UHGV virus genome: UHGV-0816550
Reading direction: 5' to 3' (one strand)
DNA from: a virus
Length of the DNA: 18,217 nucleotides
Of the stretch, positions 448 through 18,217 are shown piece by piece. A program made the translations under genes and the position numbers. The first letter of the stretch is position 1. Each line of letters starts with the position of its first letter. The notes under the pieces were generated by a model, which was given only the letters and a program-made list of their open reading frames with translations, did no database searches and was not told the origin of the DNA.

Positions 448-3400
448 ATGATCGTTTATAATAGCCAAGCACCTGATGCAGTGAATGATGTTGGGCAGTT
501 TGGTGCTAAGGAAGGCTCTATCGGAGCTTACAAGCAAGCAGCAGAATATGCAGCTGACTCCAAATATTGGGCACTGCTAGCGGAGTCTAAGTTTGGTACA
601 ATTGATGACTTGATCACTGAAGTAGAACGTCTGTATCAACAAGGTGTTTTAATGAAGCAAGATATCGAAGATCTTAAACAGGACTTTAAAGATCAAGATG
701 CTCGTTTGATGACACTTATTGCTCAGACTAACGCAGCAGTGTCGGATGCTAATAATGCCGTTGCTTTAATCAATCAGAAACTTATTGAGGTTCAGAAACA
801 GCTTGATGTTCTGTTGGGAATGTCTGTTGACGTAACTACACTTCCTCCGGGAACTCCGGCTACTGGCTCTTTTAATCCGAACACTGGTGTAATCTCTTTA
901 GGTATTCCAGAAGGTGATCCCGGAAAGGATGGTTCTGTTAAAGATTTGGATACAGCACCTACTGGTGTTCCAGAGCTAGGTGATTTAGGTTTCTATGTTG
1001 ACAAAGATGACAATACTGTCCACAAGACTACTCTAGAGAATATTGCTAACTTAATTCCATCTGTTCGTTCTGTGTCTGTTAACGGTGGAACACCTGCTGA
1101 TGGAGAAGTTAATCTGGTCCTAGACAAAACTACTGTAGGTCTTAATAACGTAGTTAACGTAGCCTCTTATAGTATCTCTCAAGTTGACGGTAAAGTGGAT
1201 GGGTATGTTAAAACCTACAGAACCAAAGCTGCTGCGGATGCTGATGTAGTTAACCGAAAGGTTGGCGAAAACATCCTAGTTTGGGAGGATTATAAATACG
1301 TCTTCTACACTGTAGCTGCCGATAAAACACTAACTCTTTCTAAAACAGAAAATAGGATTGTTACGGTAAACTCTCGAGTTCCGGATTCTACTGGTAATAT
1401 TGATATTACGATACCTACCGGTAACCCGTCTTTGTATTTGGGTGAGATGTTAATGTTCCCTTATGACCCAGCCAAACAGGTGTCATATCCGGGTGTTCTT
1501 CCAGCTGATGGTCGTCTGGTGTCTAAAGATAACGCTGCTGATTTAGGCCCATCTCTTGTCAGTGGTCAACTTCCTGTTGTTTCTGAAACTGCGTGGCAAG
1601 CTGGAGCTAAACAGTATTTCTCTTGGGGCAAGTTAGCTGATGGGGTTACTGATGCGGATTCAACAAACTTTATCAATATTCGACTTCCCGATTGGACAGG
1701 TGGTGAGGCAATTAGATCTCCAAGTAAAACAAGTGACACTCAGTATGATGGAAGACCTCTTTCTCAGGTTCCTTATGTTGTTGCTGTTAACGGTAAGATC
1801 CCTAATGAAGCAACAGGTAATGTTACAGTCACAGCATCAGATGTAGGTGCCCTTCCTACTACTGGTGGTAAGATGACAGGCCATCTAAATCTCAGCTCTG
1901 GGATTGTGTTAACAGGTACCGCGAGTTCTGGAACATCCATTAATATCGCAACTGTTGCAACTGATGGTTCCGTTCTTCTCGGTAGTGATACAGTTAAAGC
2001 TAAAGTCCTATCTTCTGATGTCCCTGTTTATGCAAGCGCTTCGGGAGAGAAGAAGTTTTACACTGAGGCTAACAAACCAACTCCTGCTGAAATAGGGGCT
2101 GCTGCTATCACCTCTGCTGGGGTTAACGGGGATATCACTAAGCTTGAAGGTTTGGTTGGCCCTACTCGACTGGGTGGAGATGCTGTAGGTGATCTAGATG
2201 CTGTTACCTTACGTCAGTTAAGAAACCAAGGGGGTGGCGGTGGTGGGGCTAGCTTGAACGGTGTCTCTAATTTCAATATTGGTGATTTCCGTTTAGTAGA
2301 CAGTCGTGCTCTTATTCACTCTAATGACGTAACTTCTGACGGTCAATTATTATCTCGTACGGCATACCCAGATCTGTGGGCTTATGCTCAAGCGTTGTCT
2401 CCTATCACAGATGCTGCTTGGCTGGCTGACCCCCAACAAAGAGGTAAATACTCTTTAGGTGATGGTTCTACTACATTCCGTGTCCCTGACCGAAATGGTG
2501 TCCAAAGCGGCTCTATCACAGGGTTGTTTGGTAGGGGTGACTCTGGTAATTCTTCTAACAGTGGTTCAGTTTCTGATGCTTCTCTGCCAAACATCACAGC
2601 TAGCTTCTCTTCAGACTTAAACGGAAAAGCTTGGTTTCCTTTCACTACAGCTGACGGGTCTATGCTTGTCTCAACATCCGGTAGTGGAACTTTTATGCCA
2701 ACTGCTGGATATGAAACTGGGACCCAAGGAAATATACTTAGGTTCGATGCATCTAGACAATCCTCAGTTTATGGTCGATATAGTAACACCCAGAACGTAA
2801 TACCTAAAAGTTTTACTGGCGTTTGGGTAATCAGGGCTACTGGTGGATTCACTGCTGCTAATACAGAGTGGTCTGTTATTAACTCCGATGCAACCAAACC
2901 TTCTACTGGGTTTACAGTGTCTGGTGGTTTAGTCCGCTCTGAGTATAAAATAGGGACCGACCTAACTTACTCAGCAACCTTGTCTGCTTATGGGCAAATT
3001 GATGGAGCCTCCGGAACATCTGGAGCTAAAATCTTAAACGGGTCTCAGGAGTGGAAATTCAACAATGCTGGAACATTAGTTCTTCCTAATGCGGTATCTC
3101 AGCTTGGTACAGAAAGACCTGATGGAGCTATCAATGTTGATGCATACCTAAGACCTAAAGATTTGGTAGCCAACTCACTGAACTCTGTCGGTGTTGCGGC
3201 TTACGAGCGAAACGGTATGAGGATGATTAACTTCAATCAAACCACTCCTGGATATGTTTCTTACTTCTCTGGGGATTGGTATGATGGCAGTTACACTCTT
3301 GGTGGCGTTCGTGGTACTGGTACAGACCTGATTCATGCTCAGATTGCGGTAAACAACGGTCAAGGTGTAGCAGCTGATTTTAAGTTCATGCCGGACGGAA

Positions 3401-3762
3401 CTGCTCAAGCAGGGAACTGGTCAAGCACTTCAGACGAAAGACTTAAAACTAACATCAAGCGTATTGAGAATCCTATTGAAAAACTTAAGGCTATCAAAGG
3501 TGTTACTTGGGAACGTCTTGATAAACTTCCTAAACCTAATGGTATTGGCTTCCTTGCGCAAGATGTGGAGAAGGTTTTCCCTGACGCTGTTAAGGCTCTC
3601 CAGTATTCAGACACTGAATTGAAAGATGGAACTATTGTGAAAGATGTTAAGTCTGTAGACACCTATGGGGTAGCTGCTGCACTGCATCACGAAGTCCTAT
3701 TAGTTTTGTTAGATAGAATAGAAGCTCTTGAGAAAGAAGTAAATGAATTAAGGGCACGGTAA
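448..3762 (+). CDS. Tail fibre / tailspike protein 1 (1104 aa) with tail-collar module and C-terminal intramolecular chaperone domain
   Basis: ATG 448 preceded by AAGGAG (437-442). Predicted coiled-coil N-terminus; poly-Gly hinge (QGGGGGGAS); collar-like motif AYPDLWAYAQAL...GDGSTTFRVPDRNG at about 2362-2500; C-terminal S-DERLKTNIKRIENPIEKLKAIKGVTWERLD...LHHEV typical of peptidase S74 self-cleaving chaperone domains. Confidence 0.9.
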   Translation: MIVYNSQAPDAVNDVGQFGAKEGSIGAYKQAAEYAADSKYWALLAESKFGTIDDLITEVERLYQQGVLMKQDIEDLKQDFKDQDARLMTLIAQTNAAVSDANNAVALINQKLIEVQKQLDVLLGMSVDVTTLPPGTPATGSFNPNTGVISLGIPEGDPGKDGSVKDLDTAPTGVPELGDLGFYVDKDDNTVHKTTLENIANLIPSVRSVSVNGGTPADGEVNLVLDKTTVGLNNVVNVASYSISQVDGKVDGYVKTYRTKAAADADVVNRKVGENILVWEDYKYVFYTVAADKTLTLSKTENRIVTVNSRVPDSTGNIDITIPTGNPSLYLGEMLMFPYDPAKQVSYPGVLPADGRLVSKDNAADLGPSLVSGQLPVVSETAWQAGAKQYFSWGKLADGVTDADSTNFINIRLPDWTGGEAIRSPSKTSDTQYDGRPLSQVPYVVAVNGKIPNEATGNVTVTASDVGALPTTGGKMTGHLNLSSGIVLTGTASSGTSINIATVATDGSVLLGSDTVKAKVLSSDVPVYASASGEKKFYTEANKPTPAEIGAAAITSAGVNGDITKLEGLVGPTRLGGDAVGDLDAVTLRQLRNQGGGGGGASLNGVSNFNIGDFRLVDSRALIHSNDVTSDGQLLSRTAYPDLWAYAQALSPITDAAWLADPQQRGKYSLGDGSTTFRVPDRNGVQSGSITGLFGRGDSGNSSNSGSVSDASLPNITASFSSDLNGKAWFPFTTADGSMLVSTSGSGTFMPTAGYETGTQGNILRFDASRQSSVYGRYSNTQNVIPKSFTGVWVIRATGGFTAANTEWSVINSDATKPSTGFTVSGGLVRSEYKIGTDLTYSATLSAYGQIDGASGTSGAKILNGSQEWKFNNAGTLVLPNAVSQLGTERPDGAINVDAYLRPKDLVANSLNSVGVAAYERNGMRMINFNQTTPGYVSYFSGDWYDGSYTLGGVRGTGTDLIHAQIAVNNGQGVAADFKFMPDGTAQAGNWSSTSDERLKTNIKRIENPIEKLKAIKGVTWERLDKLPKPNGIGFLAQDVEKVFPDAVKALQYSDTELKDGTIVKDVKSVDTYGVAAALHHEVLLVLLDRIEALEKEVNELRAR
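3430..3759 (+). other. Intramolecular chaperone (peptidase S74-like) domain of fibre 1, with predicted autocleavage near the Ser-Asp at 3430-3435
   Basis: Motif SDERLKTNI...GVTWERL...GIGFLAQDVEKVFPDAV...LHHEVLLVLLDRIEALEKEVNELR matches the conserved endosialidase/tailspike C-terminal chaperone signature ending in a coiled coil. Confidence 0.7.
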
Positions 3763-3772
3763 TATAAATAAT

Positions 3773-3791
3773 GCTCCCTTCGGGGAGCTTT
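3773..3791 (+). terminator. Stem-loop GCTCCC-TTCG-GGGAGC followed by TTT; candidate terminator or RNA processing/stability hairpin
   Basis: Perfect 6-bp GC-rich inverted repeat with a UUCG tetraloop 11 nt after the fibre 1 stop; only a short U-tract; the AAGGAG site of the next gene follows at 3792. Confidence 0.5.
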
Positions 3792-3803
3792 AAGGAGATT
3801 TAA

Positions 3804-5900
3804 ATGTCTAGAGATTTAATGCCCAAATCTGGCATACTTCAACCATATGTTGTTGTTTCCAGAGATGCAGCTGTTGTTGGCGTTTCCACTGTAGATGGTG
3901 TTGCTGGAGCTGTAAATTTAACTGATAAATACTTGCAGAAAACAGAAGCGGCTGATGTATATCAAACTAAAACAGAAGGTGCATCTAAAGATTATGTATT
4001 AGATTCAATTAAACCTATCATGGAAGGTGCTTTGTTCAAAGCAGACCCTTTTGTAGATAATAACATCCCTTTCCGTTCTGCTGGGGCTAATGGTGTAGAG
4101 TCTGTGGATATGATGAAAGTCACCACTGATAACTCAATTAAGATTGGTAGTTATGCTTCCTCAGTTCAAGGTGTAGAAATTCACTCTGCTGGTCGTCTTC
4201 AGGTTGTTGACCAGAATGACTCTGGGGTAGAAACTAAGTACCCTGTTTATTCTAAACGATACCGCCCTGAGATTGAAGATTTACCTTTCGCTGCAATCGG
4301 AACTTATGTTAAAGATTCAAAAGGTCGTACTGTTGGTGTTACCCGTACAGGTATTAACTCTGATATCAAACAGCTTACACAGAAGGTTACTTTCACTCAG
4401 CCAGTAACTGTTGCCGATGCAGTTGGTGACTATGATGCTGTCACACTAAGACAACTCCGTAATAGTAGTGGTGGTTCTGGTGGTCCTACAATGAGCGGTA
4501 TTTCTAACTTTGGTATTGGTGATTTCAGACTAGTAGACAGCCGTGCTTTTATCCAATCAAATGATGTTACCTCAGATGGTCAGCTGTTAAATCGTGCTGA
4601 TTACCCAGAGCTTTGGGCTTACGCACAACTATTGACCCCAATTAGTGATGCAGATTGGCTGGCTGACCCCCAACAAAGAGGTAAATACTCTTTAGGTGAT
4701 GGTTCTACTACTTTCCGCGTTCCTGATAGAAATGGCGTTCAAACCGGTTCTATCTCTGGTCTGTATGCTCGCGGTGACGGTGGTAACAGCTCCAACGACG
4801 GTACTGTTCAGCAGAACGCCGCGCCTGATATTACAGGCTCCGTTGGTGCGAACATATGGAGCGTATATGGAGATCCTACGGGGGCGATGTTTGCGGCTGA
4901 TCCAGCACTTAATATTCCGTTAGGCGCAGGAACCACACCAGCGCTTTCCGTCGGCTTTCGAGCGGGCCTATCAAACGCCGCTTATGGTCGCGACAACACG
5001 ACCGAAGTCCGCACCAACAGCTTCATAGGTGTCTGGGTTATTCGTGCTAATGGTGGCTTTACTGCTGCTAATACTTCTTGGTCTGTTATTAATGGCGACA
5101 GCGTTGCTCCGGGTACTGGAACAAAGATAGTAGGTGGTGAGATTCGTTCTGACTATAATATTGGAGACTCTATGCACATAAGATCCTCTATGCGTGCTGA
5201 TGGTAACTACGGTCAACGTGGAGGTGGTGTATGGAGAATTGAGGACTATCAAGGTAAAAGTGCAGAGATATCTTTCAACCTTGGTGGTGAGTTAGTGGTC
5301 CCAACATACACCAGAGGCGTGGGGTCGGGTTTCATTGCATCTTCTAAATTAGGGTCTGATGGTCAGTGGCCTACAACATCCCCGGCGTTTATTTGTGAGC
5401 TAACAGGCAGAGTGGGTAATCCCGGAACACCGGGTGCTGTTTTCTCCATGTCTATGGCGGAGAACGTGGGTGTTGATAGCTTTGGCATACTTAGATTCTC
5501 AGGAGCAGGGGTGAATGTGGACTGGCTGTTTAACCAGTTTGGTAGTGCCATAGCTCCTGCTAACTGGGTGAGTAATTCGGATATCCGAATTAAAAAGGAT
5601 ATTGCTAAGATAGAAGAACCTCTTGAGAAGATGAAGAAACTACATGGGTACACTTGGCGACGCTTAGACGGGGGCCAGTTTGGTATTGGGTTCATTGCTC
5701 AAGAAGTTCAGGATATCTATCCAGAGTTGGTCTATACAGGCCCAGACAGAACCCTCCCTGATGGAACAGTTGTCAAAGGTGTCCTATCTCCAGATTCTAC
5801 TGGTATTGCGATTGGTCTTCACCACGAAGCTATTCTGGCTTTGATGGAACAAATCGACACCCTTAAAGCAGAGATTGCTGAACTCAAATCTAACAAATGA
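3804..5900 (+). CDS. Tail fibre / tailspike protein 2 (698 aa), paralogue of fibre 1 with collar module and C-terminal intramolecular chaperone domain
   Basis: ATG 3804 with AAGGAG at 3792-3797. Collar-like motif ADYPELWAYAQLL...GDGSTTFRVPDRNG at about 4596-4737, roughly 80% aa-identical to fibre 1 over this module; C-terminal SDIRIKKDIAKIEEPLEKMKKLHGYTWRRLD...LHHEAILALMEQIDTLKAEIAELK. Confidence 0.9.
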   Translation: MSRDLMPKSGILQPYVVVSRDAAVVGVSTVDGVAGAVNLTDKYLQKTEAADVYQTKTEGASKDYVLDSIKPIMEGALFKADPFVDNNIPFRSAGANGVESVDMMKVTTDNSIKIGSYASSVQGVEIHSAGRLQVVDQNDSGVETKYPVYSKRYRPEIEDLPFAAIGTYVKDSKGRTVGVTRTGINSDIKQLTQKVTFTQPVTVADAVGDYDAVTLRQLRNSSGGSGGPTMSGISNFGIGDFRLVDSRAFIQSNDVTSDGQLLNRADYPELWAYAQLLTPISDADWLADPQQRGKYSLGDGSTTFRVPDRNGVQTGSISGLYARGDGGNSSNDGTVQQNAAPDITGSVGANIWSVYGDPTGAMFAADPALNIPLGAGTTPALSVGFRAGLSNAAYGRDNTTEVRTNSFIGVWVIRANGGFTAANTSWSVINGDSVAPGTGTKIVGGEIRSDYNIGDSMHIRSSMRADGNYGQRGGGVWRIEDYQGKSAEISFNLGGELVVPTYTRGVGSGFIASSKLGSDGQWPTTSPAFICELTGRVGNPGTPGAVFSMSMAENVGVDSFGILRFSGAGVNVDWLFNQFGSAIAPANWVSNSDIRIKKDIAKIEEPLEKMKKLHGYTWRRLDGGQFGIGFIAQEVQDIYPELVYTGPDRTLPDGTVVKGVLSPDSTGIAIGLHHEAILALMEQIDTLKAEIAELKSNK
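5577..5897 (+). other. Intramolecular chaperone (peptidase S74-like) domain of fibre 2
   Basis: NSDIRIKKDI...HGYTWRRL...GIGFIAQEVQDIYPELV...GLHHEAIL plus terminal coiled coil; homologous to the fibre 1 C-terminus but divergent (I estimate about 40% identity by eye). Confidence 0.7.
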
Positions 5901-5903
5901 GAT

Positions 5904-5922
5904 AAGCCCCTTCGGGGGCTTT
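5904..5922 (+). terminator. Stem-loop AAGCCCC-TTCG-GGGGCTT; candidate terminator or processing hairpin after fibre 2
   Basis: Perfect 7-bp stem with UUCG tetraloop 4 nt after the TGA stop; same architecture as the hairpin at 3773-3791; weak U-tract. Confidence 0.45.
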
Positions 5923-5992
5923 AGTAGTAAGTACCCTTAGTAAGTAATGAAACTAATATATCCCAAGAGGTTAATATATAGGAGACACTCAA

Positions 5993-6211
5993 ATGAAAAT
6001 GATGAAACAGGCTGCATATGGTTTAATCTGTTTAGTTGCAGGCGTTGTGGTATCAACCGCAGTTCCTGTAAGCGCAGTTCATCCATTAGTAACTGTCCCT
6101 GCTCCAGTAGAGAAGCTTAGCTCTCAATGCAAGCAGAGAACAATTCAAAATAACTTAGTTGTTATTTGCCCCGATGCTGAATCTAACGCTCTGAGAAAGA
6201 TACTACCTTAA
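5993..6211 (+). CDS. Small membrane protein (72 aa), putative holin or lysis accessory protein
   Basis: ATG 5993 with AGGAG at 5980-5984. One N-terminal hydrophobic segment (AAYGLICLVAGVVVSTAV), a proline-rich stretch and a charged C-terminal tail; sits immediately upstream of a lysozyme that has no signal or anchor sequence. Confidence 0.5.
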   Translation: MKMMKQAAYGLICLVAGVVVSTAVPVSAVHPLVTVPAPVEKLSSQCKQRTIQNNLVVICPDAESNALRKILP

Positions 6212-6240
6212 TTTAAAGGGACTACAAAAGGAGGTTAGGA

Positions 6241-6732
6241 ATGGATAACGCCGCATTGCCACCTGTACAACTAAACTTAAGCCCAGCTGGAATGGAATTC
6301 ATCATGAAGCATGAGGGTATGAGAACCAAGGCTTATAAAGATTCCGCAGGTATATGGACTATATGTGTAGGGGCTACGCGCGATATGAATGGTTATCCGG
6401 TTAGACAAGGATTAACGTATTCTATAGAGGATTGTCTAGCTCTGCTAGATAGAGACACACAAGACTCTGTTCGTGCTACTCAAAAGAACATAAAGGTTCC
6501 TTTACTAGTTCATGAGTTTGATGCACTCACTTCTTTCAACTTCAATGTTGGCAGTGGTGCTTTGAGCACATCTAAGTTAAGGAAGGTTATCAATGGAGAA
6601 GTTAAAGGGGATGTATATTCCGAATTTCTTCGTTGGGATAAAATAACGGTCAAGGGAGAGAAGCAGAGAAGTCAGGGTCTTCATAATAGAAGGGTTGCAG
6701 AAGCTGATCTTTACACCGAAGGTAAATATTAA
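6241..6732 (+). CDS. Endolysin, T4-type lysozyme (glycoside hydrolase family 24)
   Basis: ATG 6241 with AAAGGAGG at 6226-6233. HEG-MRTKAYKD-SAGIWTICVG reproduces the T4 lysozyme catalytic spacing Glu-(9)-Asp-(6)-Thr (T4 E11/D20/T26; here E25/D34/T40). No N-terminal hydrophobic segment, so it would be holin-dependent. Confidence 0.9.
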   Translation: MDNAALPPVQLNLSPAGMEFIMKHEGMRTKAYKDSAGIWTICVGATRDMNGYPVRQGLTYSIEDCLALLDRDTQDSVRATQKNIKVPLLVHEFDALTSFNFNVGSGALSTSKLRKVINGEVKGDVYSEFLRWDKITVKGEKQRSQGLHNRRVAEADLYTEGKY

Positions 6733-6744
6733 TGGAGGTGCCTT

Positions 6745-7548
6745 TTGGCTATCGAAACTAATGCGGTAGTTATTACCGACTTAAACCCGCTCTATCCTAG
6801 AGACAGGGATTACATCTACGAAGGGGCGGCTCAAATCCGCCTCATTAAACAAACGTTACAGAACACATTCCCCAATGTTACAGAACCGGTTGATATAGAT
6901 TCTGATACCTTTAAGATTATGTCAGAGAAGCTTAAGTTTACTGGTGATGCAATGGATGTTGGTGGTCTTATGATCAAGAATGTTACTCCGGGAACTGGTG
7001 ACAAGGATGTTGTTACTAAAGGCCAGATGGAAGCGTTCATGAAGAACTGGATGGAGAATAAGCTCTATCGAATTGGTTCTTACTATATCACTGAAGAAGA
7101 CATTAACCCAGGTGATTCAATCTCCTTAGGGTTTGGTTCTTGGGCTAAAGTGACTGGTGTCATTATGGGTACTGGTGTAGTAAACCCTGATGGAACTGTT
7201 CCTAATGCTCAGAGAGTTGAGTTCCAAGCAGGTGGTACTGGTGGTCGTGTCTTCAATACTATTCGAACTGAGAACGTACCTTTGATGACAGTTAATGGCT
7301 CCAGCTTCTCTCTATCCAGTAATACTCACAGTCACAATATGGTGTTTGGTCGTGGGGATGCTAGTGGTCATAACAGCTCACCAAACTGGTATAGTCCGGG
7401 TGGTGGTTATAGTCAGAGAACTGATAATGACACACATACTCATACAATCTCTGGTAGTGTAAGTCTTGGTCGTGATGATATCTCTCGTCAACCTATTAAC
7501 ACTTTGCCACCATTCAGAGCAGCTCACATTTGGAGACGTATTAGCTAA
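6745..7548 (+). CDS. Short tail fibre-like / receptor-binding tail protein (267 aa) with two HxH motifs
   Basis: TTG start at 6745 with GGAGG at 6734-6738; no in-frame ATG nearby. C-terminal region NTHSHNMVFGRGDASGHNSS...DTHTHTISG has HxH motifs and an FGRGD-x-G-x-NSS motif also present in both fibres, recalling the T4 gp12 type collar and metal-binding tip region. Confidence 0.7.
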   Translation: MAIETNAVVITDLNPLYPRDRDYIYEGAAQIRLIKQTLQNTFPNVTEPVDIDSDTFKIMSEKLKFTGDAMDVGGLMIKNVTPGTGDKDVVTKGQMEAFMKNWMENKLYRIGSYYITEEDINPGDSISLGFGSWAKVTGVIMGTGVVNPDGTVPNAQRVEFQAGGTGGRVFNTIRTENVPLMTVNGSSFSLSSNTHSHNMVFGRGDASGHNSSPNWYSPGGGYSQRTDNDTHTHTISGSVSLGRDDISRQPINTLPPFRAAHIWRRIS

Positions 7549-7557
7549 GGAGGAATT

Positions 7558-10500
7558 ATGGCGCTGTATCCAATAAAGTCACTAGGTGCTGTAGGCGTTA
7601 TCGCTGATCAGGCTCCGACAGACTTAGCTCCTAATGCTTTCACTAATGCTATAAATGCTCGATTTGTTGAGCAGAGAGTATTTAAGACGGGGGGCAATGC
7701 CCCTCTTTCTTATGTAGATGAAGATAAGGATTTAACCCCTCTGTCTTTCGTTTCTATGCCTTTCGATTATTATAGCGCAGGTAATAGCTTTCTTGTTGTA
7801 GGTACTAATAAGAAGTTATATAAACTGACAGATGAAAGCTTGACTGATATTAGCCGTAAGGTTGCTACAGTCACTAAGAAGGCTTCTGCCTCAATTAAGA
7901 TTTATCCAGTTGTTTCTCAGATCGTTCCTAAAGAATCAACTATCTCAATGAACTTCAATCAGACCAAGAATCTAGAGGTTTCTCTTCTCCCTGCTGATGC
8001 TAACAATACCGATCTTATTTGGGAGGTTAGTAACTCATCCTATGGAAGTATTACGGTAGACCCTAGTGACTCTAAACTTGCTACTCTAACATCTTTTGAG
8101 AAAGAGGGTAATCTTGTAGTAACTATCTCTACTGCCAATGAATCCGTAGTGGCTCAGATTGCTGTTAATATTATCGATGGCGATTCAGGCATCTTCTTGA
8201 GTCAAGACACTGTTACAATTCGTAAAGGAGGGACTACTACTCTCACGGCTGTTACTGGCAAGACTCCTGTAACTTGGTCCAGCAATAACGCTTCTATTGT
8301 ATCTGTAACCCCTAATGCCAACTCTTTAACTGCTGTCATTACAGCGAATGGAGAAGGTAATGTAACAATCACTGCTGATAACGGGACTAAGACTGCTTCT
8401 TGTGAGATTGTTTCTATCCCTCAGATTGATAGTATCTCTTTAAGCCAGTCAGATGTTACTGTGAGTAGAGGTTCTCAGTATATTTTAACTGCCACCCTTT
8501 CTCCTGCTAACGCCCCTAATCAAAACATTACTTGGACCTCTTCTAACCCAAATATTGCAACAGTATCAGGGACTAGCACACAAGGGACGATCAACGCTCT
8601 GCTTGCTGGTTTTACTGAGATTACAGCTACCACTGAAGAAGGTAACAGAGTTGCTGTCTGTACTGTACGTGTGGATTTAGCTGGAAGGACAATGAGAACA
8701 AGTGCTATGGCATTTGCCGCTCCTGTGTCAGAGTCAGTAGAAACTCAAGAGGAAGAAGTAGTAACTCCTCCTGAAAGTGAAGAGACGGTTTATTTTGCTG
8801 AGCCTACATCCGGTATTGATACGTCAGGGATGTATGAAGGTAACAACTTCTACGACTACTCTAACGTGAATGACATTGAAGGTTTTGCAAGAGCTTCTTT
8901 ACTGGCAACCCCTTTGTCGTCTGTAACCTTAGATATTGTCAGCGCCTCCCTTGATGTTGGTGAAGAGATTGTCATTACAGCCACAGCTTCTCCAGAAGGT
9001 GAGTACTCTTATCAGTGGTCTGTTGATAAAACTGGTTATGTTTCTACAACTTCAGTTACTGGTAAATCTATCAAACTGGTTGCTCTTCGTAAAGGAGAGA
9101 TTAACGTAACATGTACTGTCAGCCAGATGACTCAGAAAGATTATGATGCTTTTGATGACTACCCTTGGTATCACGCTGTTATCTCTAACTGTGCAGTTGC
9201 TACAACTCACTATGAAACTCCTCAGGTAAAAGAATTCGAATCAGAATACTTTGTAGACCTCCCGGGGTGGGGTGAGCAAACAGTTGTTGATAATGATGGA
9301 AACCCTTCAGTCAAGAAGTTTAACTGGAAATGTGAGAGAGTGAGATCTTTTAACAACCGTCTTTTTGCTCTGAATATGAGAGAGGCTAATGCTTCTGGTG
9401 TTACCACTAACTATCCGCTTCGTCTTCGTTGGTCTAACTTTGCCAATGAGAACAAGGCTCCTACACTGTGGGATGACTTTGCCTATGATCGAGTTGTGTC
9501 TTCGGACTTAGCTTCTAACATCGTAGGGCAGACTCAGGCTCTAGAGAATGGGTATGCTGGTTACATCGACTTAGCAGATTCTAATGGTAGCTTGATTGAT
9601 ATCCTACCTCTTAAAGACTACTTGTTTGTTTATACAGAGTTTGAAACGTATATTGGTTCTCCGACTAATAACACATACCAACCTCTGATGTTCAAGAAGC
9701 TCTTTAACGACTCTGGTATCCTTGCTCCCGAGTGTGTGGTTGAAGTAGAAGGCAGTCACTTCGTAGTTACTCAGAACGATGTAATCTTACACAATGGCGC
9801 AACCAAGAAGTCAATTGCATCTAACCGTGTCAAGAACATGCTGATTAACGAGGTGTGTCTGGTTAATCCTCTAGCAACTCGAGTACACTTGCATCAGGAT
9901 AAGAAAGAAGTTTGGGTTCTGTATGTAGGTCCGGGAGAACCAAAAGAAAGCTTCGCTTGCACCAAAGCTGCTGTATGGAATTATGAGTTTGATACCTGGT
10001 CTTTCCGTACTATCCCATATGCTCAGTGTATTGGTCTGGTTGATCCTCCTGTTTTAGAAAGAGGTCCAATCTGGTCTGACTTCCAAGAAATCACTTGGGA
10101 TGATCCGTCTATTAAAGAACTCGTTTGGAGAAAGGATGCAACAAACTTTAGACAGAGGGTTACGATAGTAGGTTCGTTCTTGAGGGGATTCTATCAGGTG
10201 GATGTAGGTGCTCTTGATTATTTCTATGACAGGCTAAACGATGTTGTTATAGAGAAGCCTCTGGAAATGAGGTTGGAGAGGACTGGTATAGATTTTGATA
10301 ATGTGACGAATGAGTGGAATCAGAAGCATATTAATAGATTCCGACCTCAGACAACTGGCTCAGGTACTTACATATTTGAAGCTGGTGGCAGTCAATTCTC
10401 AAATGAATATGGACACCCACATACATCTAAGACTTATACAATCGGTGTTGACAGGCATGTCTCGGTGAGACTGAACCATCCATACCTTTTCTATAATGTT

Positions 10501-10575
10501 ATAGATAATGATGTTAACAGTAATGCTGCTATCAATGGTTTGACGATAGAGTTTGCTGTTGGCGGGCGGAGATAA
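7558..10575 (+). CDS. Large virion structural protein (1005 aa) with four internal Ig-like (Big_2-type) domains
   Basis: ATG 7558 with AAGGAGG at 7547-7553. Four roughly 80-aa repeats between about 7903 and 9120 with the Big_2 pattern (for example TISMNFNQTKNLEVSLLPADANNTDLIWEVSNSSYGSITVD; VTIRKGGTTTLTAVTGKTPVTWSSNNASIVSV; VTVSRGSQYILTATLSPANAPNQNITWTSSNPNIATV). Flanking N- and C-terminal regions not recognised. Confidence 0.8.
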   Translation: MALYPIKSLGAVGVIADQAPTDLAPNAFTNAINARFVEQRVFKTGGNAPLSYVDEDKDLTPLSFVSMPFDYYSAGNSFLVVGTNKKLYKLTDESLTDISRKVATVTKKASASIKIYPVVSQIVPKESTISMNFNQTKNLEVSLLPADANNTDLIWEVSNSSYGSITVDPSDSKLATLTSFEKEGNLVVTISTANESVVAQIAVNIIDGDSGIFLSQDTVTIRKGGTTTLTAVTGKTPVTWSSNNASIVSVTPNANSLTAVITANGEGNVTITADNGTKTASCEIVSIPQIDSISLSQSDVTVSRGSQYILTATLSPANAPNQNITWTSSNPNIATVSGTSTQGTINALLAGFTEITATTEEGNRVAVCTVRVDLAGRTMRTSAMAFAAPVSESVETQEEEVVTPPESEETVYFAEPTSGIDTSGMYEGNNFYDYSNVNDIEGFARASLLATPLSSVTLDIVSASLDVGEEIVITATASPEGEYSYQWSVDKTGYVSTTSVTGKSIKLVALRKGEINVTCTVSQMTQKDYDAFDDYPWYHAVISNCAVATTHYETPQVKEFESEYFVDLPGWGEQTVVDNDGNPSVKKFNWKCERVRSFNNRLFALNMREANASGVTTNYPLRLRWSNFANENKAPTLWDDFAYDRVVSSDLASNIVGQTQALENGYAGYIDLADSNGSLIDILPLKDYLFVYTEFETYIGSPTNNTYQPLMFKKLFNDSGILAPECVVEVEGSHFVVTQNDVILHNGATKKSIASNRVKNMLINEVCLVNPLATRVHLHQDKKEVWVLYVGPGEPKESFACTKAAVWNYEFDTWSFRTIPYAQCIGLVDPPVLERGPIWSDFQEITWDDPSIKELVWRKDATNFRQRVTIVGSFLRGFYQVDVGALDYFYDRLNDVVIEKPLEMRLERTGIDFDNVTNEWNQKHINRFRPQTTGSGTYIFEAGGSQFSNEYGHPHTSKTYTIGVDRHVSVRLNHPYLFYNVIDNDVNSNAAINGLTIEFAVGGRR

Positions 10576-10579
10576 CAAC

Positions 10580-10608
10580 AAGGGGCTTCGTGCCCCTTTT
10601 ATTGTTTT
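10580..10608 (+). terminator. Rho-independent terminator-like hairpin AAGGGGC-TTCGT-GCCCCTT followed by a U-rich tract
   Basis: 7-bp GC-rich stem at 10580-10586 / 10592-10598, then TTATTGTTTT; lies 5 nt after the TAA stop at 10573-10575 and before the next gene's GGAGGA site. Confidence 0.6.
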
Positions 10609-10618
10609 GGAGGAACTT

Positions 10619-11587
10619 ATGGGTGCAGGTGGTTTTCGTAAGAATACTGGTCGCAACAATACCACACTCCCGTACAACGTTGGGTTTCTCAATAATGTAC
10701 AGGACACAGAAACATATAACGTAGCCGTATATGATGAGCTACAAAAAGTCAGTACAGCTACTAACCAAATGTTCCAAGCTATAGATGAAATTCACGAAGA
10801 GATTGATGTTCGTATTAAAGCTCTTAATGCAATGAATCTACAATTTGATGAGCTTGAGAATAGAATTACTACAGAGATAGAAACAGCTATTGCAGATATC
10901 CAAACCCAGATGGGGAACCTGTCCACTGAGGATATTTGGGATAATTCTGTTCAACCTCCTGTGAAGCTGGAAAGCACTGTATCTGGTTTTAAGACTAGCA
11001 TCGAAGGTAACACAACTAAGATTCAGACAGTAGAAGGTATTGTTAACGATCAAGGTCAAGAGATTGCTCTTGTTCAGACAGAACTGCAAAATATCAACGG
11101 AAGCCTTTCTCAGTATATGAAACTCTCTGAGTATGAAGCTACGTGGGGTGTTAACTCTACAGTCAACGGAAGATATGCTGGGGTCAAGTTAACTAACAAC
11201 GGAACAAACAGTCAATTCCAAGTAACAGCTAACAAATTTATTGTTGGTGATGGCAGCTCTGGGAATACTCCCTTCGTATTTGAGGGTGGGCGAGCTAGGA
11301 TGGAATTCGCTGATATAAAGAATGTCAATATCACAACAGCTCAGATTGCTAACGCTAGAATCCAATGGGCACAGATTGATAACGTATCCATCTCCAACGC
11401 CCAGATTCAGAACTTGTCAGCGGATAAGATTACTGCTGGTTCTATGTGGGGTTCTAACTGGAGACTTACTGTTGGTGGTGACTTTGTTATGGGTGGTACA
11501 GGTGGAGCGCAGTTGTGGATGAATGGTAACAGAATAGACTTCTATGATGGAAGTGGTGCTCTTAGAATCAGGATAGGGAGTTGGTAA
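10619..11587 (+). CDS. Tail protein (322 aa) with coiled-coil region and J-like beta-repeat C-terminal domain
   Basis: ATG 10619 with GGAGGA at 10609-10614; the ORF-track start at 10553 is a TTG inside the previous gene and terminator. Heptad-like central region; C-terminal repeats NITTAQIANARIQWAQIDNVSISNAQIQNLSADKITAGS resemble tail tip / host-specificity protein repeats. Confidence 0.75.
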   Translation: MGAGGFRKNTGRNNTTLPYNVGFLNNVQDTETYNVAVYDELQKVSTATNQMFQAIDEIHEEIDVRIKALNAMNLQFDELENRITTEIETAIADIQTQMGNLSTEDIWDNSVQPPVKLESTVSGFKTSIEGNTTKIQTVEGIVNDQGQEIALVQTELQNINGSLSQYMKLSEYEATWGVNSTVNGRYAGVKLTNNGTNSQFQVTANKFIVGDGSSGNTPFVFEGGRARMEFADIKNVNITTAQIANARIQWAQIDNVSISNAQIQNLSADKITAGSMWGSNWRLTVGGDFVMGGTGGAQLWMNGNRIDFYDGSGALRIRIGSW

Positions 11588-12632: not shown

Positions 12633-13415
12633 ATGGCAATTAAAATGGGTATTGAAGAACTAGACCCAATGGTTCAACAGGCTTCAAAGAAGTATGGGAT
12701 TCCTGCTGCTTTGATTCATGCTGTAATCCAAAGAGAGTCTAGTGGTCGTCCTACGGTAGCCTCTGGAACTGGTCCTGTAGGTTTAATGCAGATCAGTAAA
12801 GGGTTGGCTAAAGACTACGGTTACAAACTAGAAGACAGACTTGACCCAGCAAAGAATATTGATATGGGTGCTCGTTATATTAGAGATAACTTAAAGGCTT
12901 TTAATGGTGATGTTAAGAAAGCAATGGTTGGTTATTCAGAAGGTATAGGTGGAGCTAAGCAAATGTTTGCCGGTAAAAAGGGATTTACACCTCAAGCCCT
13001 TGACTCAATGAACAACAAACACTTTCTTCCTTTCTATGATGATGCAGCTTCTCAGATTGCTAACCCTATTGGAGCTTTGCAAGCTGTTCAACCAGTCAAT
13101 CAGTTTAGTCCGGATACTCTTGATAGGGAGAAGGCTGCTCAAGCCCCAACTCAGGCAGAAATTACTGCTTCTAAGACTGGTGCTTTAGGTGGCAATCCAG
13201 TAGAGTTTTACTCTGATGAAGTGCAGGAAGGAGAAAACCAGAAGCCTCAACAGAACTTTGGTAATGCAGTATTAGGGGTAGCTGCTATGCTTGCCGGTAA
13301 ACCTCCTACTTCTCAAACAGTTCAGAGGGCAAGTGCACCACATGCAGCAGGTTCTCAGTACAGTCCACAAACACAAGCAGTGCTCAGACGTTTAGCTAGC
13401 ATTGGTGTAAAGTAA
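12633..13415 (+). CDS. Virion-associated lytic transglycosylase (SLT-domain) protein, 260 aa
   Basis: ATG 12633 with AAGGAG at 12623-12627. N-terminal signature AVIQRESSGRPTVASGTGPVGLMQIS, with the candidate catalytic Glu35 at codon 12735-12737; placed beside putative ejection proteins, as with peptidoglycan-cutting internal virion proteins. Confidence 0.8.
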   Translation: MAIKMGIEELDPMVQQASKKYGIPAALIHAVIQRESSGRPTVASGTGPVGLMQISKGLAKDYGYKLEDRLDPAKNIDMGARYIRDNLKAFNGDVKKAMVGYSEGIGGAKQMFAGKKGFTPQALDSMNNKHFLPFYDDAASQIANPIGALQAVQPVNQFSPDTLDREKAAQAPTQAEITASKTGALGGNPVEFYSDEVQEGENQKPQQNFGNAVLGVAAMLAGKPPTSQTVQRASAPHAAGSQYSPQTQAVLRRLASIGVK

Positions 13416-14499: not shown

Positions 14500-15469
14500 A
14501 TGGGACTTTTCGGAGGAGGGGGTAGTAAAACTACTTCCCAAATGATTCGCCCTGAATATATTCAACAGTATATTGACCAGCTTAACCAGCAGATTGGTAA
14601 TACTAGTTCTAGGGGATTATGTCTATCGTGACAACGTAGGATTTAATAACAACCAGACAGAAGCCCTTAATAATTTGGCTCAATCCGGTGCTTTAGGGAC
14701 TCTCTCGCAGCAATATATGGATGCAGCAGGTCAAGGGTTGGGTTATCTGGATAATGCCTATAAAGGCTACCAGAGCCTCTCTGGACAAGGTGGGATTACT
14801 GGAGAACAGATTGGTGCTCTCGCTGGTCAACTGTATGACGATGATGCTGTGCAAGCAGCCATTACCGCTAATAATGAACAGGTTCAACAGAACTTGGCAC
14901 GTAATGCTCTTCCTCAATTAGCTCAACAGTTTGCTGGTCAGCAAGGTTCAGGTGCTCGTATGGCTAAATCTTTTGCCCAAGGTGATGCTCTGAATCAGAT
15001 GCAAGGCCAAGCAACAGATATTACCAACAGTGCCTATAACTCGGCTATTAGCCAAGCTGAAAGCATCCTCTCTGGTAATAGACAGAATCAAGCAGCTGCT
15101 CTCTCAGGTCTTTCTAATATTGGTTCTAACCTTTCTAACCTAGGTCAGCAGGGTGCTAATTTGTCTCAACAGCAAATAATGAATCAATGGAATGCAGGAT
15201 TGCAGCAACAACAGCAACAACAGAATGAATATGATAATGCCTACCAGAATGCTCAGAACGCAGCTAATTGGGGATGGCAAGATATCAATAACCAACTCGG
15301 TGCAGCAGGTGTACTTAACGGTGCTCTCGGACAAACTACAACTACTAAAACATCTGGAGGTAGGGGTGGCTTCTTAGGAGGGGGTATGAGTGGTGCAGCA
15401 GCAGGCTCTTCCTTTGGACCTTGGGGTGCATTAGCTGGGGGTGTAATCGGTGGGTTGGCTAGTACTTAA
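14500..15469 (+). CDS. Q/N/G-rich paralogue of the preceding protein, interrupted by an apparent +1 frame change near the G4 run at 14612-14615 (sequencing indel, pseudogene or recoding)
   Basis: ATG 14500 with AAGGAG at 14487-14492 opens a frame that stops at TGA 14629-14631 after 43 codons. The long downstream frame (open from 14546 to 15469) has no ATG start with a ribosome-binding site. Both parts align to the upstream paralogue (MSLFGKSASSKTT vs MGLFGGGGSKTT; GFNGNQQGALNNL vs GFNNNQTEALNNL) only if one base is removed. Confidence 0.6.
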
Positions 15470-15482
15470 TTAGGAGACAAAT

Positions 15483-16274
15483 ATGCAACAGACAACTTAC
15501 GCTCAGGTCAGAAGTCGTGACCCGAGAAATACTTTCTATGGTGTTAATCCGGGAGCGGCTTCGGCCTCTCCTTATATGGCTAGACCAACTCAGACAGCAG
15601 ATATTTCTATGTATCAACGTCCTGCTATACCTGCTGGGCTTTCCTCTCTTGTAGGTCAAACTTCAGTAGATTATCAGAATATGTTGAATCCTGTTCAGAG
15701 TAATGGTCTTCCTTCTGATATCCCAAATGATGTACAACCTCAAGCACAACAGGCTGTAACTCTTCCTGAGTTTGAGAATCAAGAAACCATGCAAGCTGCT
15801 GGACTTTCTCCTTCTTCTATTCCTCCAGAATCAGAACCTCTTCCGGTAACACCTCCTACTAAACCGTTAGAAGCTGGTCCTATGGAGTTTACTCCTTCTC
15901 AGGTGGAACAGGCACAAGGTGTGATTAATACTCTTGCTCAAGGACAAGACGCTGGTGATGGAATGACTGCTGCTACTCGTGCTAAAGATCAGGAACGTGT
16001 TAACAACGATATCTTGCAAGTTGCTAAAGCTAAAAATCCTTCAGAAGCTTGGAATAAACTACAGAAAGAACCTTTCTATCAGAACTCCAGTTTCTATACA
16101 GGTTTAATGGGTGTAGGTCTTTCTATCATGTCAGGTAAGTCTCCTATTGAAGCTTTCCAGATTGGTCAGGGAATGGCTAATCAAGATGAGACTAAGAAGC
16201 AACTGGAAGCTAACCGTGATGCTCTGATTGAACAAGGCTTCTCCCAAGACTCGATCGCAGCTGCTATTGCTTAA
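15483..16274 (+). CDS. Hypothetical virion/ejection-associated protein (263 aa) with Pro-rich linker and C-terminal hydrophobic segment
   Basis: ATG 15483 with AGGAG at 15473-15477. Pro/Ser-rich linker (SPSSIPPESEPLPVTPPTKPLEAGP) and hydrophobic FYTGLMGVGLSIMSG near the C-terminus; no family motif recognised. Confidence 0.65.
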   Translation: MQQTTYAQVRSRDPRNTFYGVNPGAASASPYMARPTQTADISMYQRPAIPAGLSSLVGQTSVDYQNMLNPVQSNGLPSDIPNDVQPQAQQAVTLPEFENQETMQAAGLSPSSIPPESEPLPVTPPTKPLEAGPMEFTPSQVEQAQGVINTLAQGQDAGDGMTAATRAKDQERVNNDILQVAKAKNPSEAWNKLQKEPFYQNSSFYTGLMGVGLSIMSGKSPIEAFQIGQGMANQDETKKQLEANRDALIEQGFSQDSIAAAIA

Positions 16275-17967
16275 CACGTTGAGAGCGAGCACGCTGAGAA
16301 GAGAAGCGATTCAGAGCATACTTAGCAGCACCGAGAGTGTTCATTACCAGACTAGGTGAAGAAGCCTCACGGAATCCATCATCAGTCAGGGAAGTCCAAC
16401 CACGATCTTGGTTACTCATAAACTTAGCCGTATTGTTCAGAGTGTAAGCATCTTGGATAGGATTAAAACCTTCAGGCATGCCTTTCAGTTTCTTCAACCC
16501 ACCGATAGCTTTCTTCATCTCTGGAGAAACGTTATCAGCCATCTTCTGTAGTTCAGCAGCTTTCTCTACGAAGTTGTTAAAGTCTTCACCATCACGAGCT
16601 TTGAATCGATTTGCTTCGTTATAGAAAGTCTTGTACGCATCAATGAAATCACGGTCAGCTTGTGTGCGATTCTTAATATCAATCGGACTGCCAGTAAAGT
16701 CACCAGAAGCTCGGAGAGAAACTAACTCACGATCAAGATTATCCAGAACATCTGTAAGAGCTTTAGTGTTATCCTTGGTGTAGTCAGCCATTGCATCTTT
16801 CATAGCGACAGCTTGCTTCTGGTTGTGCTCATTATCAGCGAAGGCTTTACCACGAGTCTTAGCCGGAGAAGCTAAAGGGTTAAGGCCCGGAATGTTGGAA
16901 TGTTCTTTCTGAACAGAAGCAGCTTTCTCAGCACGAGCTTGGTCAGTATTAAGAATACGCTGAGCAGCAGGAGAATCTACAGCAACAGCATCTGTGATAC
17001 GGAATCCGTTCTCGTCGAGAAGGTTCAGAGCAGAAGCAGCGTTAGCAGTTTCAGCTTTAGAGTAAGCCTCTTTCAGCTCATCAATATTCTTAGCACCACG
17101 AATCAGTTCATCATCAGCAGCAATATCAGTCTTCGCATATTCTGGAGTGTTCTTGAAGACAGCAGAATCCGGACGGCTAATCAAACCATGAACTCCACCA
17201 ACTGCACCACCAAATGCAGCACCCATAGCCCCTTCTTCAATAACCCCTTCCAATGTCTTAGCTAAATCATTGTCATCACCATACTTGTTCTGAACTTCAG
17301 CAGCACCAACAAGAGCACCACCTTTAGCACCAGCCACTGCGTTACTAGCAACGTTCTGACCAATACGACCAAGTGTGGACTCAGCTGTACCAACAGCACC
17401 CGGAAGGATTCTCTGAGCTGCATAGTTAGCACCACCAACTAAGGCTGCATCTAGAACAGACTTATCTTCTCCCTCTTCAGGGGTTTGGTCTGCATACGCA
17501 CGACCGGTCTCACGACCTGCGATGATAGCAGCGGCAGCTAATGGGTTAGCAACTGTCAGACCAATGTCGGCAACCACCCCAGCATACTGACCAGCAGACT
17601 TACCAATCCCATCCTCAATCTTATCCATACGTTCTTTCAAGAGGTTTTGAGCGTTCTCTTGCATACGCTTCCCGTAACCAGTTTGTGCTCCAGTTAGATC
17701 TTCACCAATCTCAACTAAGCCCCCAATACCTCTAGCAAGATTAGCAGAGATGTTAGCACTGCCGGACTGAAGAGCATTTGACACACCTTGAGCAAACTCA
17801 CCTATAGCACCACGTTCTTCTTGTTGTGGTTGTGCTACTGGCTGTTCCTCAGGAATAGAGCCACCTGCTGCCTTATATTGTTCTCTCATTCGAGCTTGTT
17901 GCTCCGGAGAGGCATTCAGATACGCAGGAGCTTTGGAAGCTTCTTCCCACGGTTTAATGTTAGCCAT
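16264..17967 (-). CDS. Hypothetical Gly/Ala-rich protein (567 aa), function unknown
   Basis: Minus-strand ATG at 17965-17967 preceded by AAGGAG; product begins MANIKPWEEAS. The ORF-track start at 18012 has no ribosome-binding site. Stop TAG at 16264-16266 overlaps the 3' end of the + strand gene ending at 16274. Confidence 0.75.
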   Translation of the reverse strand: MANIKPWEEASKAPAYLNASPEQQARMREQYKAAGGSIPEEQPVAQPQQEERGAIGEFAQGVSNALQSGSANISANLARGIGGLVEIGEDLTGAQTGYGKRMQENAQNLLKERMDKIEDGIGKSAGQYAGVVADIGLTVANPLAAAAIIAGRETGRAYADQTPEEGEDKSVLDAALVGGANYAAQRILPGAVGTAESTLGRIGQNVASNAVAGAKGGALVGAAEVQNKYGDDNDLAKTLEGVIEEGAMGAAFGGAVGGVHGLISRPDSAVFKNTPEYAKTDIAADDELIRGAKNIDELKEAYSKAETANAASALNLLDENGFRITDAVAVDSPAAQRILNTDQARAEKAASVQKEHSNIPGLNPLASPAKTRGKAFADNEHNQKQAVAMKDAMADYTKDNTKALTDVLDNLDRELVSLRASGDFTGSPIDIKNRTQADRDFIDAYKTFYNEANRFKARDGEDFNNFVEKAAELQKMADNVSPEMKKAIGGLKKLKGMPEGFNPIQDAYTLNNTAKFMSNQDRGWTSLTDDGFREASSPSLVMNTLGAAKYALNRFSSQRARSQRVKQ

Positions 17968-18035
17968 AACGTCTCCTTTTATAAATAAAAATGTCCTACC
18001 CCCTATATACATTATAGAAGGCAGGACTTAGGTCT

Positions 18036-18217
18036 TATTGAGTGAACCAGCTCGTATCTTCAACAGCTGATAGAGCACCATTAAGCTTAGGATTGGTTGC
18101 TGCACCACCAACCGCTTCTTCTGCTTGTTCAGAGAAAACACCTAGAGGGTCATAGAAACCACCAGAAGGGATTGCACGGTTAACCAATGCAGTAGCCCTC
18201 TTCTTGTCCATACCAGA
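18036..18217 (-). CDS. Small minus-strand ORF, possibly the C-terminus of a gene that starts beyond the window end
   Basis: Frame open from the window edge to TAA (complement of 18036-18038); internal ATG at 18209-18211 would give a 57-aa product MDKKRATALVNRAIPSGGFYDPLGVF...; codon usage like neighbours. Start not determinable. Confidence 0.35.

What the first reader, a model, noticed from the sequence alone, without database searches (positions are those of the whole stretch)
16264..17967. Gly/Ala-rich 567-aa minus-strand protein of unknown function
A well-supported ORF with a good ribosome-binding site, rich in Gly/Ala stretches (GGAVGGVHGL; AVAGAKGGALVGAAEV) and predicted helical regions, opposite in orientation to the tail/ejection block. 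No family motif recognised; it could be a scaffold-like or internal protein.
Basis: inference. Interest (0 to 1): 0.4.

Follow-up and report, generated by a model that had tools for sequence, protein, structure and literature searches.

The report
Inverted fragment of phage ejection-protein gene
The "567-aa minus-strand protein" is the first 38% of the known 1473-aa DNA-ejection protein of phiEco32/SU10-type coliphages, cut off and turned round by an inversion seen only in this sequence, so it is a broken copy of a known gene, not a new one.

Summary
The ORF is real at 16264..17967 (-), with AAGGAG 5 nt upstream of the ATG and the quoted Gly/Ala stretches. It is not a complete gene. It is codons 1-567 of the 1473-aa gene 26 of phiEco32 (SU10 gp24, PHROG 14629): 96% identical, no gaps. 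SU10 gp24 is a 163-kDa virion protein that leaves the head with the DNA, i.e. an ejection protein.

The window is a Kuravirus late block, colinear with relatives up to 16275. From 16267 to the window end it is the reverse complement of the relatives. One breakpoint lies after codon 263 of gene 25, the other after codon 567 of gene 26. They share 5 nt (TTGCT), and the junction supplies both stop codons.

None of 82 relatives spans the junction, 98 of 99 carry the full-length colinear gene, and distant homologues are 1086-1754 aa. The fragment shows no decay (55 synonymous vs 8 non-synonymous codon changes). A +1 frameshift also breaks gene 24 nearby.

Most likely this is a chimeric or assembly-level artefact, or a very recent defective rearrangement. 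Novelty: already known. Interest: low.

The parts
16264..17967 (-). Truncated CDS: codons 1-567 of the Kuravirus 1473-aa ejection-protein gene (phiEco32 gene 26 / SU10 gp24), plus a junction-derived TAG stop
   Evidence: PHROG 14629, positions 1-567 of 1473, E=0; 545/567 identical to phi32_26, no gaps
16267..18217 (.). Segment inverted relative to all relatives. It runs to the window end, so the second breakpoint is outside the window (expected about 675 nt further on if this is a simple inversion)
   Evidence: window 16267-18217 matches EcK-vB locus L002 13701-11751 in reverse (96.2%), while window 5902-16275 matches L002 706-11075 forward (96.7%); no record spans the junction
16267..16271 (.). 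Junction microhomology TTGCT, shared by the gene-25 parent (forward) and the gene-26 parent (reverse complement)
   Evidence: sequences read directly; chance of at least 5 nt is about 0.5%
16264..16266 (-). TAG stop of the truncated gene-26 fragment. It is the reverse complement of CTA in gene-25-derived sequence, so it is not a native stop
15483..16274 (+). Truncated gene-25 homologue (SU10 gp23, 60-kDa ejection protein): codons 1-263 of 551, ending in a TAA (16272-16274) supplied by gene-26-derived sequence
   Evidence: (PHROG 12130, positions 1-265 of 551)
18035..18217 (-). C-terminal end (codons 492-551 plus native TAA) of the same gene 25, now on the minus strand upstream of the gene-26 fragment
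   Evidence: (PHROG 12130, positions 492-551 of 551, E=1.3e-35)
17973..17978 (-). Native ribosome-binding site AAGGAG of gene 26
   Evidence: identical in relatives
18006..18014 (-). TAATGTATA, the consensus element of promoters read by the phage sigma factor phi32_gp36. This is the P26 promoter, carried along on the inverted segment
   Evidence: only match in the window; PMC8948821: consensus tAATGTAtA, and gene 26 is one of six genes downstream of experimentally mapped gp36 promoters; same position, -45 to -47, in 7 relatives
17993..18027 (-). Hairpin with a 15-pair stem followed by ATTTTTATTT, in the gene 25-26 intergenic region. It encloses the promoter element and looks like a terminator for the upstream operon
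   Evidence: conserved with pair-preserving substitutions in the clade at about 80% protein identity (L007)
14500..15469 (+). Gene-24 homologue (SU10 gp22 ejection protein) broken by a 1-nt insertion at about 14610. This is a second lesion in the same module
   Evidence: insertion relative to both phiEco32 and EcK-vB; deleting one base restores a 322-codon ORF

Best explanation
The ORF is not a gene in its own right. It is the first 567 codons of the Kuravirus giant ejection-protein gene (phiEco32 gene 26 / SU10 gp24, 1473 aa, 163 kDa). It sits with its native promoter element, hairpin and ribosome-binding site on a segment of at least 1.95 kb that is inverted in this sequence only. One breakpoint is after codon 263 of gene 25 and the other after codon 567 of gene 26. 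The ends are joined at a 5-nt microhomology (TTGCT), and the junction happens to give both truncated reading frames an immediate stop.

Shown for relatives: the full-length protein is packed in the head and leaves it at genome release, together with the SLT transglycosylase and three other ejection proteins.

Inferred: after the tail needle is lost, the protein passes through the portal and nozzle. It then helps build the conduit that carries DNA across the periplasm and inner membrane. The conserved Gly/Ala-rich, moderately hydrophobic helices (aa ~120-265, with invariant G213xxxG217xxxG221 and G249AxxG253) would be the membrane-inserting or helix-packing module. Downstream lie a confidently predicted helical domain (aa 270-525), then in the intact protein a Pro/Glu-rich linker and a long charged helical C-terminal part. 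The linker and C-terminal part are missing here.

Origin of the inversion (inferred): most likely a chimeric-molecule, assembly or sequence-handling artefact, or at most a very recent defective genome. It destroys two conserved ejection-protein genes, a third is frameshifted 1.7 kb away, and none of them shows any decay.
For: Identity. PHROG 14629 matches positions 1-567 of 1473 at E=0. The ORF is 96% identical to phi32_26 residues 1-567 with no gaps and ends exactly at the junction. tblastn finds 99 Kuravirus-like records.

Inversion. blastn gives a forward match up to 16275 and a reverse match from 16267. The two halves of gene 25 lie on opposite strands. None of 82 records spans the junction, and every colinear match stops at 16275. 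The junction is absent from viral, metagenome and genome contig collections, and megablast of the junction region finds nothing in E. coli genomes or plasmids.

Full length is the rule. 98 of 99 records hold the 1473-aa gene in one colinear place. Distant representatives at 30-68% identity are 1086-1754 aa with the homologous region at the N-terminus.

No decay. There are 55 synonymous against 8 non-synonymous codon differences.

Second lesion. A +1 insertion breaks gene 24.

Microhomology. 5 nt, with chance about 0.5%.

Function of the full-length protein. [quoted passage not shown]

Structure and conservation. AF2 predicts an all-helical protein with aa 270-525 at pLDDT 80-95. The highest 19-residue Kyte-Doolittle hydropathy is 1.83, at aa 131-149.
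Against: The window ends inside the inverted segment, so the second junction is unseen. A true reciprocal inversion therefore cannot be told apart from a one-sided chimera. No reads are available, so artefact versus real rearrangement is a judgement and not a measurement.

A 5-nt microhomology is what in-vivo template switching would also leave. It argues against a k-mer graph misjoin. The inverted segment keeps its own promoter (P26), so the fragment could be expressed if the arrangement were real.

The membrane-insertion role of the Gly/Ala region is inference only. Hydropathy is borderline, AF2 confidence there is low (pLDDT 31-65), and no solved structure or Pfam family matches.
Confidence: 0.9

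Rival explanations
1. The inversion is a genuine in-vivo rearrangement carried by a replicating phage. The 567-aa N-terminal module is expressed late from its own P26 promoter as a stand-alone protein, in effect a natural domain split of the giant ejection protein.
For: A 5-nt microhomology is typical of replication template switching. The inverted segment carries the intact TAATGTATA promoter element and RBS. The break after residue 567 falls just after the confidently folded helical domain (aa 270-525) and just before the Pro/Glu-rich linker. Both truncated frames end cleanly at the junction.
Against: The rearrangement would remove the promoter and start from the C-terminal 906 codons of gene 26 and from the C-terminal 288 codons of gene 25. 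Both proteins are conserved and full length in 98-99 relatives. Both are virion ejection proteins. Gene 24 is also frameshifted, so three of five ejection proteins would be defective. No other sequence in any collection shows the junction.
Confidence: 0.08
2. One reading: a complete, independent 567-aa gene for a scaffold-like or internal protein, natively transcribed opposite to the tail/ejection block.
For: The ORF has a good RBS, a start and a stop.
Against: The stop is created by the junction. Every homologue from an intact gene is 1086-1754 aa; the shorter entries (65-513 aa) are a frameshift-split gene, a product on a 1.7-kb contig, or were not examined. The C-terminal end of gene 25 lies upstream on the same minus strand while its N-terminal half lies on the plus strand. 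The scaffolding protein of this phage group is a different gene (SU10 gp8).
Confidence: 0.01
3. A programmed invertible segment (Gin/Cin/Hin-type switch) that flips part of the ejection module.
For: An inversion is present, and phages such as Mu and P1 do carry invertible segments (established knowledge).
Against: No inverted repeat longer than the 5-nt (8 of 9 nt imperfect) match lies at the visible breakpoint. Every window ORF I scanned or matched corresponds to an adaptor, fibre, lysis, nozzle, needle or ejection gene, and none is a recombinase. Both orientations would have to be coding, but this one truncates two genes. None of 82-99 relatives has the flipped orientation.
Confidence: 0.01

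Closest known systems
phiEco32 gene 26 product (YP_001671771.1, 1473 aa) / SU10 gp24 (163 kDa ejection protein); PHROG 14629
   Same: Residues 1-567 are 96% identical with no gaps. The upstream promoter element, hairpin and RBS are the same. The neighbouring genes are the same (SLT, two phrog_4287 ejection proteins, gene 25).
   Different: This copy is truncated after residue 567 and lies on the opposite strand, with gene 25 split around it. The Pro/Glu-rich linker and the charged helical C-terminal 906 residues are not in the window.
T7 internal core / ejection proteins gp14-gp15-gp16 and P22 gp7/gp20/gp16 (functional analogues)
   Same: They are head-internal proteins released before or with the DNA to extend a short tail across the envelope. 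One very large member accompanies several smaller ones, and a lytic transglycosylase activity is present in the set (established knowledge; SU10 model in PMC9509320).
   Different: A profile search found no PDB chain with sequence similarity (best E=1.5), and Foldseek found no fold match (best E=0.75). The transglycosylase here is a separate 260-aa protein (12633-13415), whereas in T7 it is the N-terminus of the large protein gp16.
Inverted chimeric junctions made by strand displacement or template switching (for example MDA chimeras: inverted sequence, intervening skip, short junction microhomology)
   Same: The join is inverted, it skips 2.6 kb, and it has 5 nt of microhomology.
   Different: The library and assembly method of the source is unknown, and no reads were examined. 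The resemblance is recalled from the literature and was not tested here.

Membership tests
Kuravirus giant ejection protein (phiEco32 gp26 / SU10 gp24, PHROG 14629) | Sequence homology to the family | tested here: met
   PHROG 14629 E=0, 1245 bits; 96% identity to phi32_26; 99 phage records
Kuravirus giant ejection protein (phiEco32 gp26 / SU10 gp24, PHROG 14629) | Full-length architecture of about 1100-1750 aa: Gly/Ala-rich N-terminus, helical domain, Pro/Glu linker, charged helical C-terminus | tested here: not met
   Only profile positions 1-567 of 1473 are present, and the ORF stops at the junction. Relatives are 1086-1754 aa
Kuravirus giant ejection protein (phiEco32 gp26 / SU10 gp24, PHROG 14629) | Last gene of the late block, same strand as and directly downstream of gene 25 | tested here: not met
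   Opposite strand; gene 25 is split, with its two parts on opposite strands
Kuravirus giant ejection protein (phiEco32 gp26 / SU10 gp24, PHROG 14629) | Own phi32_gp36-type promoter (tAATGTAtA) upstream | tested here: met
   TAATGTATA at 18014-18006 (-), 47 nt upstream of the ATG as in relatives
Kuravirus giant ejection protein (phiEco32 gp26 / SU10 gp24, PHROG 14629) | Present in virions and lost on genome release | not testable with these tools
   Shown for SU10 only (PMC9509320 and PMC4281155)
T7 gp16-type internal core protein | Detectable sequence or fold similarity, and an N-terminal lytic transglycosylase domain in the same polypeptide | tested here: not met
   No PDB sequence match. 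No Foldseek PDB match with E<=0.001. No Pfam SLT domain in this protein or in full-length phi32_26. The SLT domain is in a separate gene
Phage scaffolding protein | Encoded next to the major capsid gene and absent from mature virions | tested here: not met
   The gene lies at the end of the tail/ejection block. The homologue is abundant in mature SU10 virions, and the scaffold is SU10 gp8
Site-specific invertible segment (Gin/Cin/Hin type) | Inverted-repeat recombination sites of about 26 bp or more at the ends, and a serine invertase gene nearby | tested here: not met
   Only 5 nt are shared at the visible junction. No long inverted repeat flanks it. No recombinase among the window ORFs scanned. 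The second end is outside the window

The most novel reading that the evidence does not exclude
The inversion is real and tolerated. The phage then makes the N-terminal Gly/Ala-rich and helical module (1-567) of its giant ejection protein as a separate polypeptide from the P26 promoter. This would show that the N-terminal module can act, or at least be packaged, on its own, and that the ejection module tolerates drastic rearrangement.
Probability: 0.04. Interest if true: 0.4.

Novelty: already known. Interest (0 to 1): 0.1.

Why it matters
Mainly as a warning about annotation and sequence quality. Taken at face value, the window would add a spurious 567-aa hypothetical protein and a spurious 263-aa protein, and would hide three broken ejection-protein genes.

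On the biology, the underlying gene family has a shown role (the Kuravirus 163-kDa ejection protein) but no known structure or mechanism. The conserved glycine-zipper-like N-terminal region identified here is a reasonable target for membrane-insertion experiments. That applies to every Kuravirus and not to this window in particular.

Tried and rejected
- **Source contig.** I searched for the exact junction in viral, metagenome and genome contigs. I looked up the exact 567-aa protein. I ran megablast of the junction region against E. coli genomes and plasmids. I ran the search for related loci in IMG/VR (best hit 96%, all colinear). Nothing was found, so the source and its reads could not be examined.
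- **Word-indexed protein searches.** They returned only two fragments. One of them, P0001, is a frameshift-split gene 26 on a colinear Logan contig.
- **Structure.** The single-sequence AF2 model was unusable (pLDDT 40). The 8-sequence model was better (64.4; aa 270-525 confident). Foldseek gave no PDB match. In BFVD it recovered only family members: EP335, and a 1107-aa Vibrio phage Vp_R1 protein at E=2e-4. Tape-measure-protein hits were not significant.
- **Pfam and PDB sequence searches.** The fragment, full-length phi32_26, seven distant homologues and the family profile gave nothing. GenBank names such as 'TolA protein', 'erythrocyte binding protein' and 'liver stage antigen' probably reflect the low-complexity charged and Pro-rich regions.
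- **Chimera between two different phages.** Rejected: both sides have the same nearest relatives (the EcK-vB group) at the same divergence.
- **De Bruijn graph misjoin at a repeat.** Unlikely: only 5 nt are shared.
- **Programmed invertible segment and scaffold protein.** Rejected; see the rival explanations.

Full report
**Observation**

Its ATG is at 17967, and 567 sense codons lead to a TAG at 16266-16264 on the minus strand. AAGGAG lies at 17978-17973, 5 nt before the ATG. The mechanical ORF list extends to an upstream ATG at 18012. However, the homologues and the annotated phiEco32 gene start at MANIKPWEE.

Both quoted Gly/Ala stretches are present. The protein is 16% Ala and 9.5% Gly. 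The enrichment is confined to residues ~55-265, where G+A is 30-42% per 40 residues.

**What the window is**

The window is the late structural block of a phiEco32-like coliphage (genus Kuravirus). Its genes, in order, are:
- the end of the SU10-type adaptor;
- two long-fibre genes with Peptidase_S74 chaperone ends;
- holin and lysozyme;
- the short fibre, the Big_2 nozzle protein and the tail-tip needle;
- a DUF6453 protein;
- an SLT transglycosylase;
- two paralogous phrog_4287 'DNA ejection proteins';
- homologues of phiEco32 genes 25 and 26.

About 100 sequenced relatives match at 80-99%.

**What the ORF is**

The 567 residues align to residues 1-567 of the 1473-aa phiEco32 gene 26 product, with 545 of 567 identical and no gaps. 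The alignment ends exactly at the ORF's stop. PHROG 14629 matches at positions 1-567 of a 1473-position profile.

The plus-strand ORF that converges on it (15483-16274, 263 aa) is the N-terminal half of gene 25 (PHROG 12130, positions 1-265 of 551). The open frame running off the window end on the minus strand (18217-18035) is the C-terminal end of the same gene 25 (positions 492-551 of 551).

blastn makes the geometry explicit. Window 5902-16275 matches the closest relative (EcK-vB, L002) forward at positions 706-11075. Window 16267-18217 matches positions 13701-11751 in reverse.

So a segment running from the middle of gene 25 to codon 567 of gene 26 is inverted. It is 2626 bp long in the reference, and 1951 bp of it lie in the window.

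At the junction the two parents share TTGCT (16267-16271). A microhomology of 5 nt or more is expected in about 0.5% of random joins.

Both stop codons are products of the junction. The TAG of the gene 26 fragment is the reverse complement of CTA in gene 25 sequence. The TAA of the gene 25 fragment comes from the TTAAC of gene 26 sequence.

**Is the arrangement found anywhere else?**

No.
- Of 82 phage records that match an 801-nt probe centred on the junction, none covers it in one piece.
- Every colinear match of the whole window stops at 16275.
- 98 of 99 records carry the 1473-aa gene as one colinear piece.
- The junction sequence is absent from IMG/VR, JGI metagenome contigs and GTDB genome contigs. 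Megablast of the junction region found no match in E. coli genomes or plasmids.
- Distant family members found by an exhaustive HMMER scan (30-68% identity) are 1086-1754 aa, with the homologous part at their N-terminus. The short hits were not examined.
- One 388-aa entry is a frameshift split of an otherwise colinear gene on a Logan contig.

**Origin of the inversion**

The fragment differs from its nearest relative by 55 synonymous and 8 non-synonymous codon changes. It therefore evolved under the constraint of an intact gene until essentially now. Both sides of the junction have the same nearest relatives at the same divergence, so the join is intragenomic.

A second lesion lies 1.7 kb away. 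An extra T at about 14610 frameshifts the gene 24 homologue after 37 codons, and removing one base restores 322 codons.

Three of the five ejection-protein genes would thus be defective. In SU10 all five proteins are virion components released at ejection.

I therefore favour a non-native origin: a chimeric molecule, or an assembly or sequence-handling error. A very recent defective genome is second. A tolerated rearrangement is a distant third.

Some evidence cuts the other way. The 5-nt microhomology argues against a k-mer graph misjoin, and it is equally what in-vivo template switching leaves. The second junction is outside the window. No reads were available. This part remains inference.

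**Expression signals**

The inverted segment brings its own signals. The only TAATGTATA in the window lies at 18014-18006 on the minus strand, 47 nt upstream of the ATG. This is the single-element consensus of promoters read by the phage sigma factor phi32_gp36. Gene 26 is one of six phiEco32 genes behind an experimentally mapped promoter of that kind (PMC8948821).

The element sits inside a hairpin with a 15-pair stem followed by a T-run (18027-17993). The hairpin is conserved in all relatives examined, with pair-preserving substitutions in the clade at about 80% protein identity. If the arrangement were real, the fragment could therefore still be transcribed late. It would run convergently against the gene 13-25 late transcript.

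**How the intact protein probably works**

Shown for SU10: gp20-24 are in the virion and missing from the genome-release intermediate, and gp24 is 163 kDa with 73% peptide coverage. The authors' model is that these proteins extend the nozzle into a channel across the periplasm, with gp20 cutting peptidoglycan.

Inferred here: the family's invariant positions cluster in the Gly/Ala-rich part. They are G130, D134, G155, A174, G178, A184, P189, A210, G213, G217, G221, G249, A250 and G253. They form GxxxG-type spacings on predicted helices. The most hydrophobic 19-residue stretch, at residues 131-149, has a Kyte-Doolittle score of 1.83.

This fits a membrane-inserting or tightly packed helical module. 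AF2 confidence there is low, but residues 270-525 are predicted as a confident helical domain (pLDDT 80-95). In the intact protein a Pro/Glu/Ala-rich linker follows, then a long, highly charged helical region with a basic tail.

No Pfam family, PDB sequence or PDB fold matches. T7 gp14-16 and P22 gp7/20/16 are therefore functional analogues only.

**Verdict**

Novelty: already known. Interest is low.

Noticed in passing
window 14500-15469 (lesion at ~14610): A 1-nt insertion (T), absent from both phiEco32 and EcK-vB, frameshifts the gene-24 / SU10 gp22 ejection-protein homologue after 37 codons. Deleting one base restores a 322-codon ORF. The site is not a homopolymer (AGTTC[T]AGGGG).
   Followed up: partly
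window 17993-18027 (-): The gene 25-26 intergenic hairpin (15-pair stem plus T-run) encloses the phi32_gp36 promoter element TAATGTATA. A terminator-like structure and a promoter thus occupy the same 35 nt. The hairpin is conserved with pair-preserving changes in the clade at about 80% protein identity (L007). It may couple termination of the gene 13-25 late transcript to initiation at P26.
   Followed up: partly
window 15632-15834: About 200 nt of the gene-25 homologue (residues ~50-118) do not align with phiEco32 but do align with EcK-vB. This is a mosaic or hypervariable stretch inside an ejection protein.
   Followed up: no
window 448-3762 and 3804-5900: The two long-tail-fibre proteins share a near-identical internal block (…DAVTLRQLRN…GDFRLVDSRA…DVTSDGQLL…RGKYSLGDGSTTFRVPDRNGVQ…). 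Each ends in a Peptidase_S74 intramolecular chaperone domain.
   Followed up: no
L002 (PV591327.1, EcK-vB) 2493, 5443, 6308, 9540: The closest GenBank relative has several single-base indels relative to the window, at sites where the window and phiEco32 align without gaps. Its annotation splits the nozzle and gene-24 homologues, so that record probably contains sequencing errors.
   Followed up: no
L009 (Logan SRR5240730 contig) 3222-7348: Gene 26 is called as two ORFs (388 aa, and 988 aa running to the contig end) that overlap by 4 nt. This is a frameshift in an otherwise colinear Kuravirus contig.
   Followed up: no
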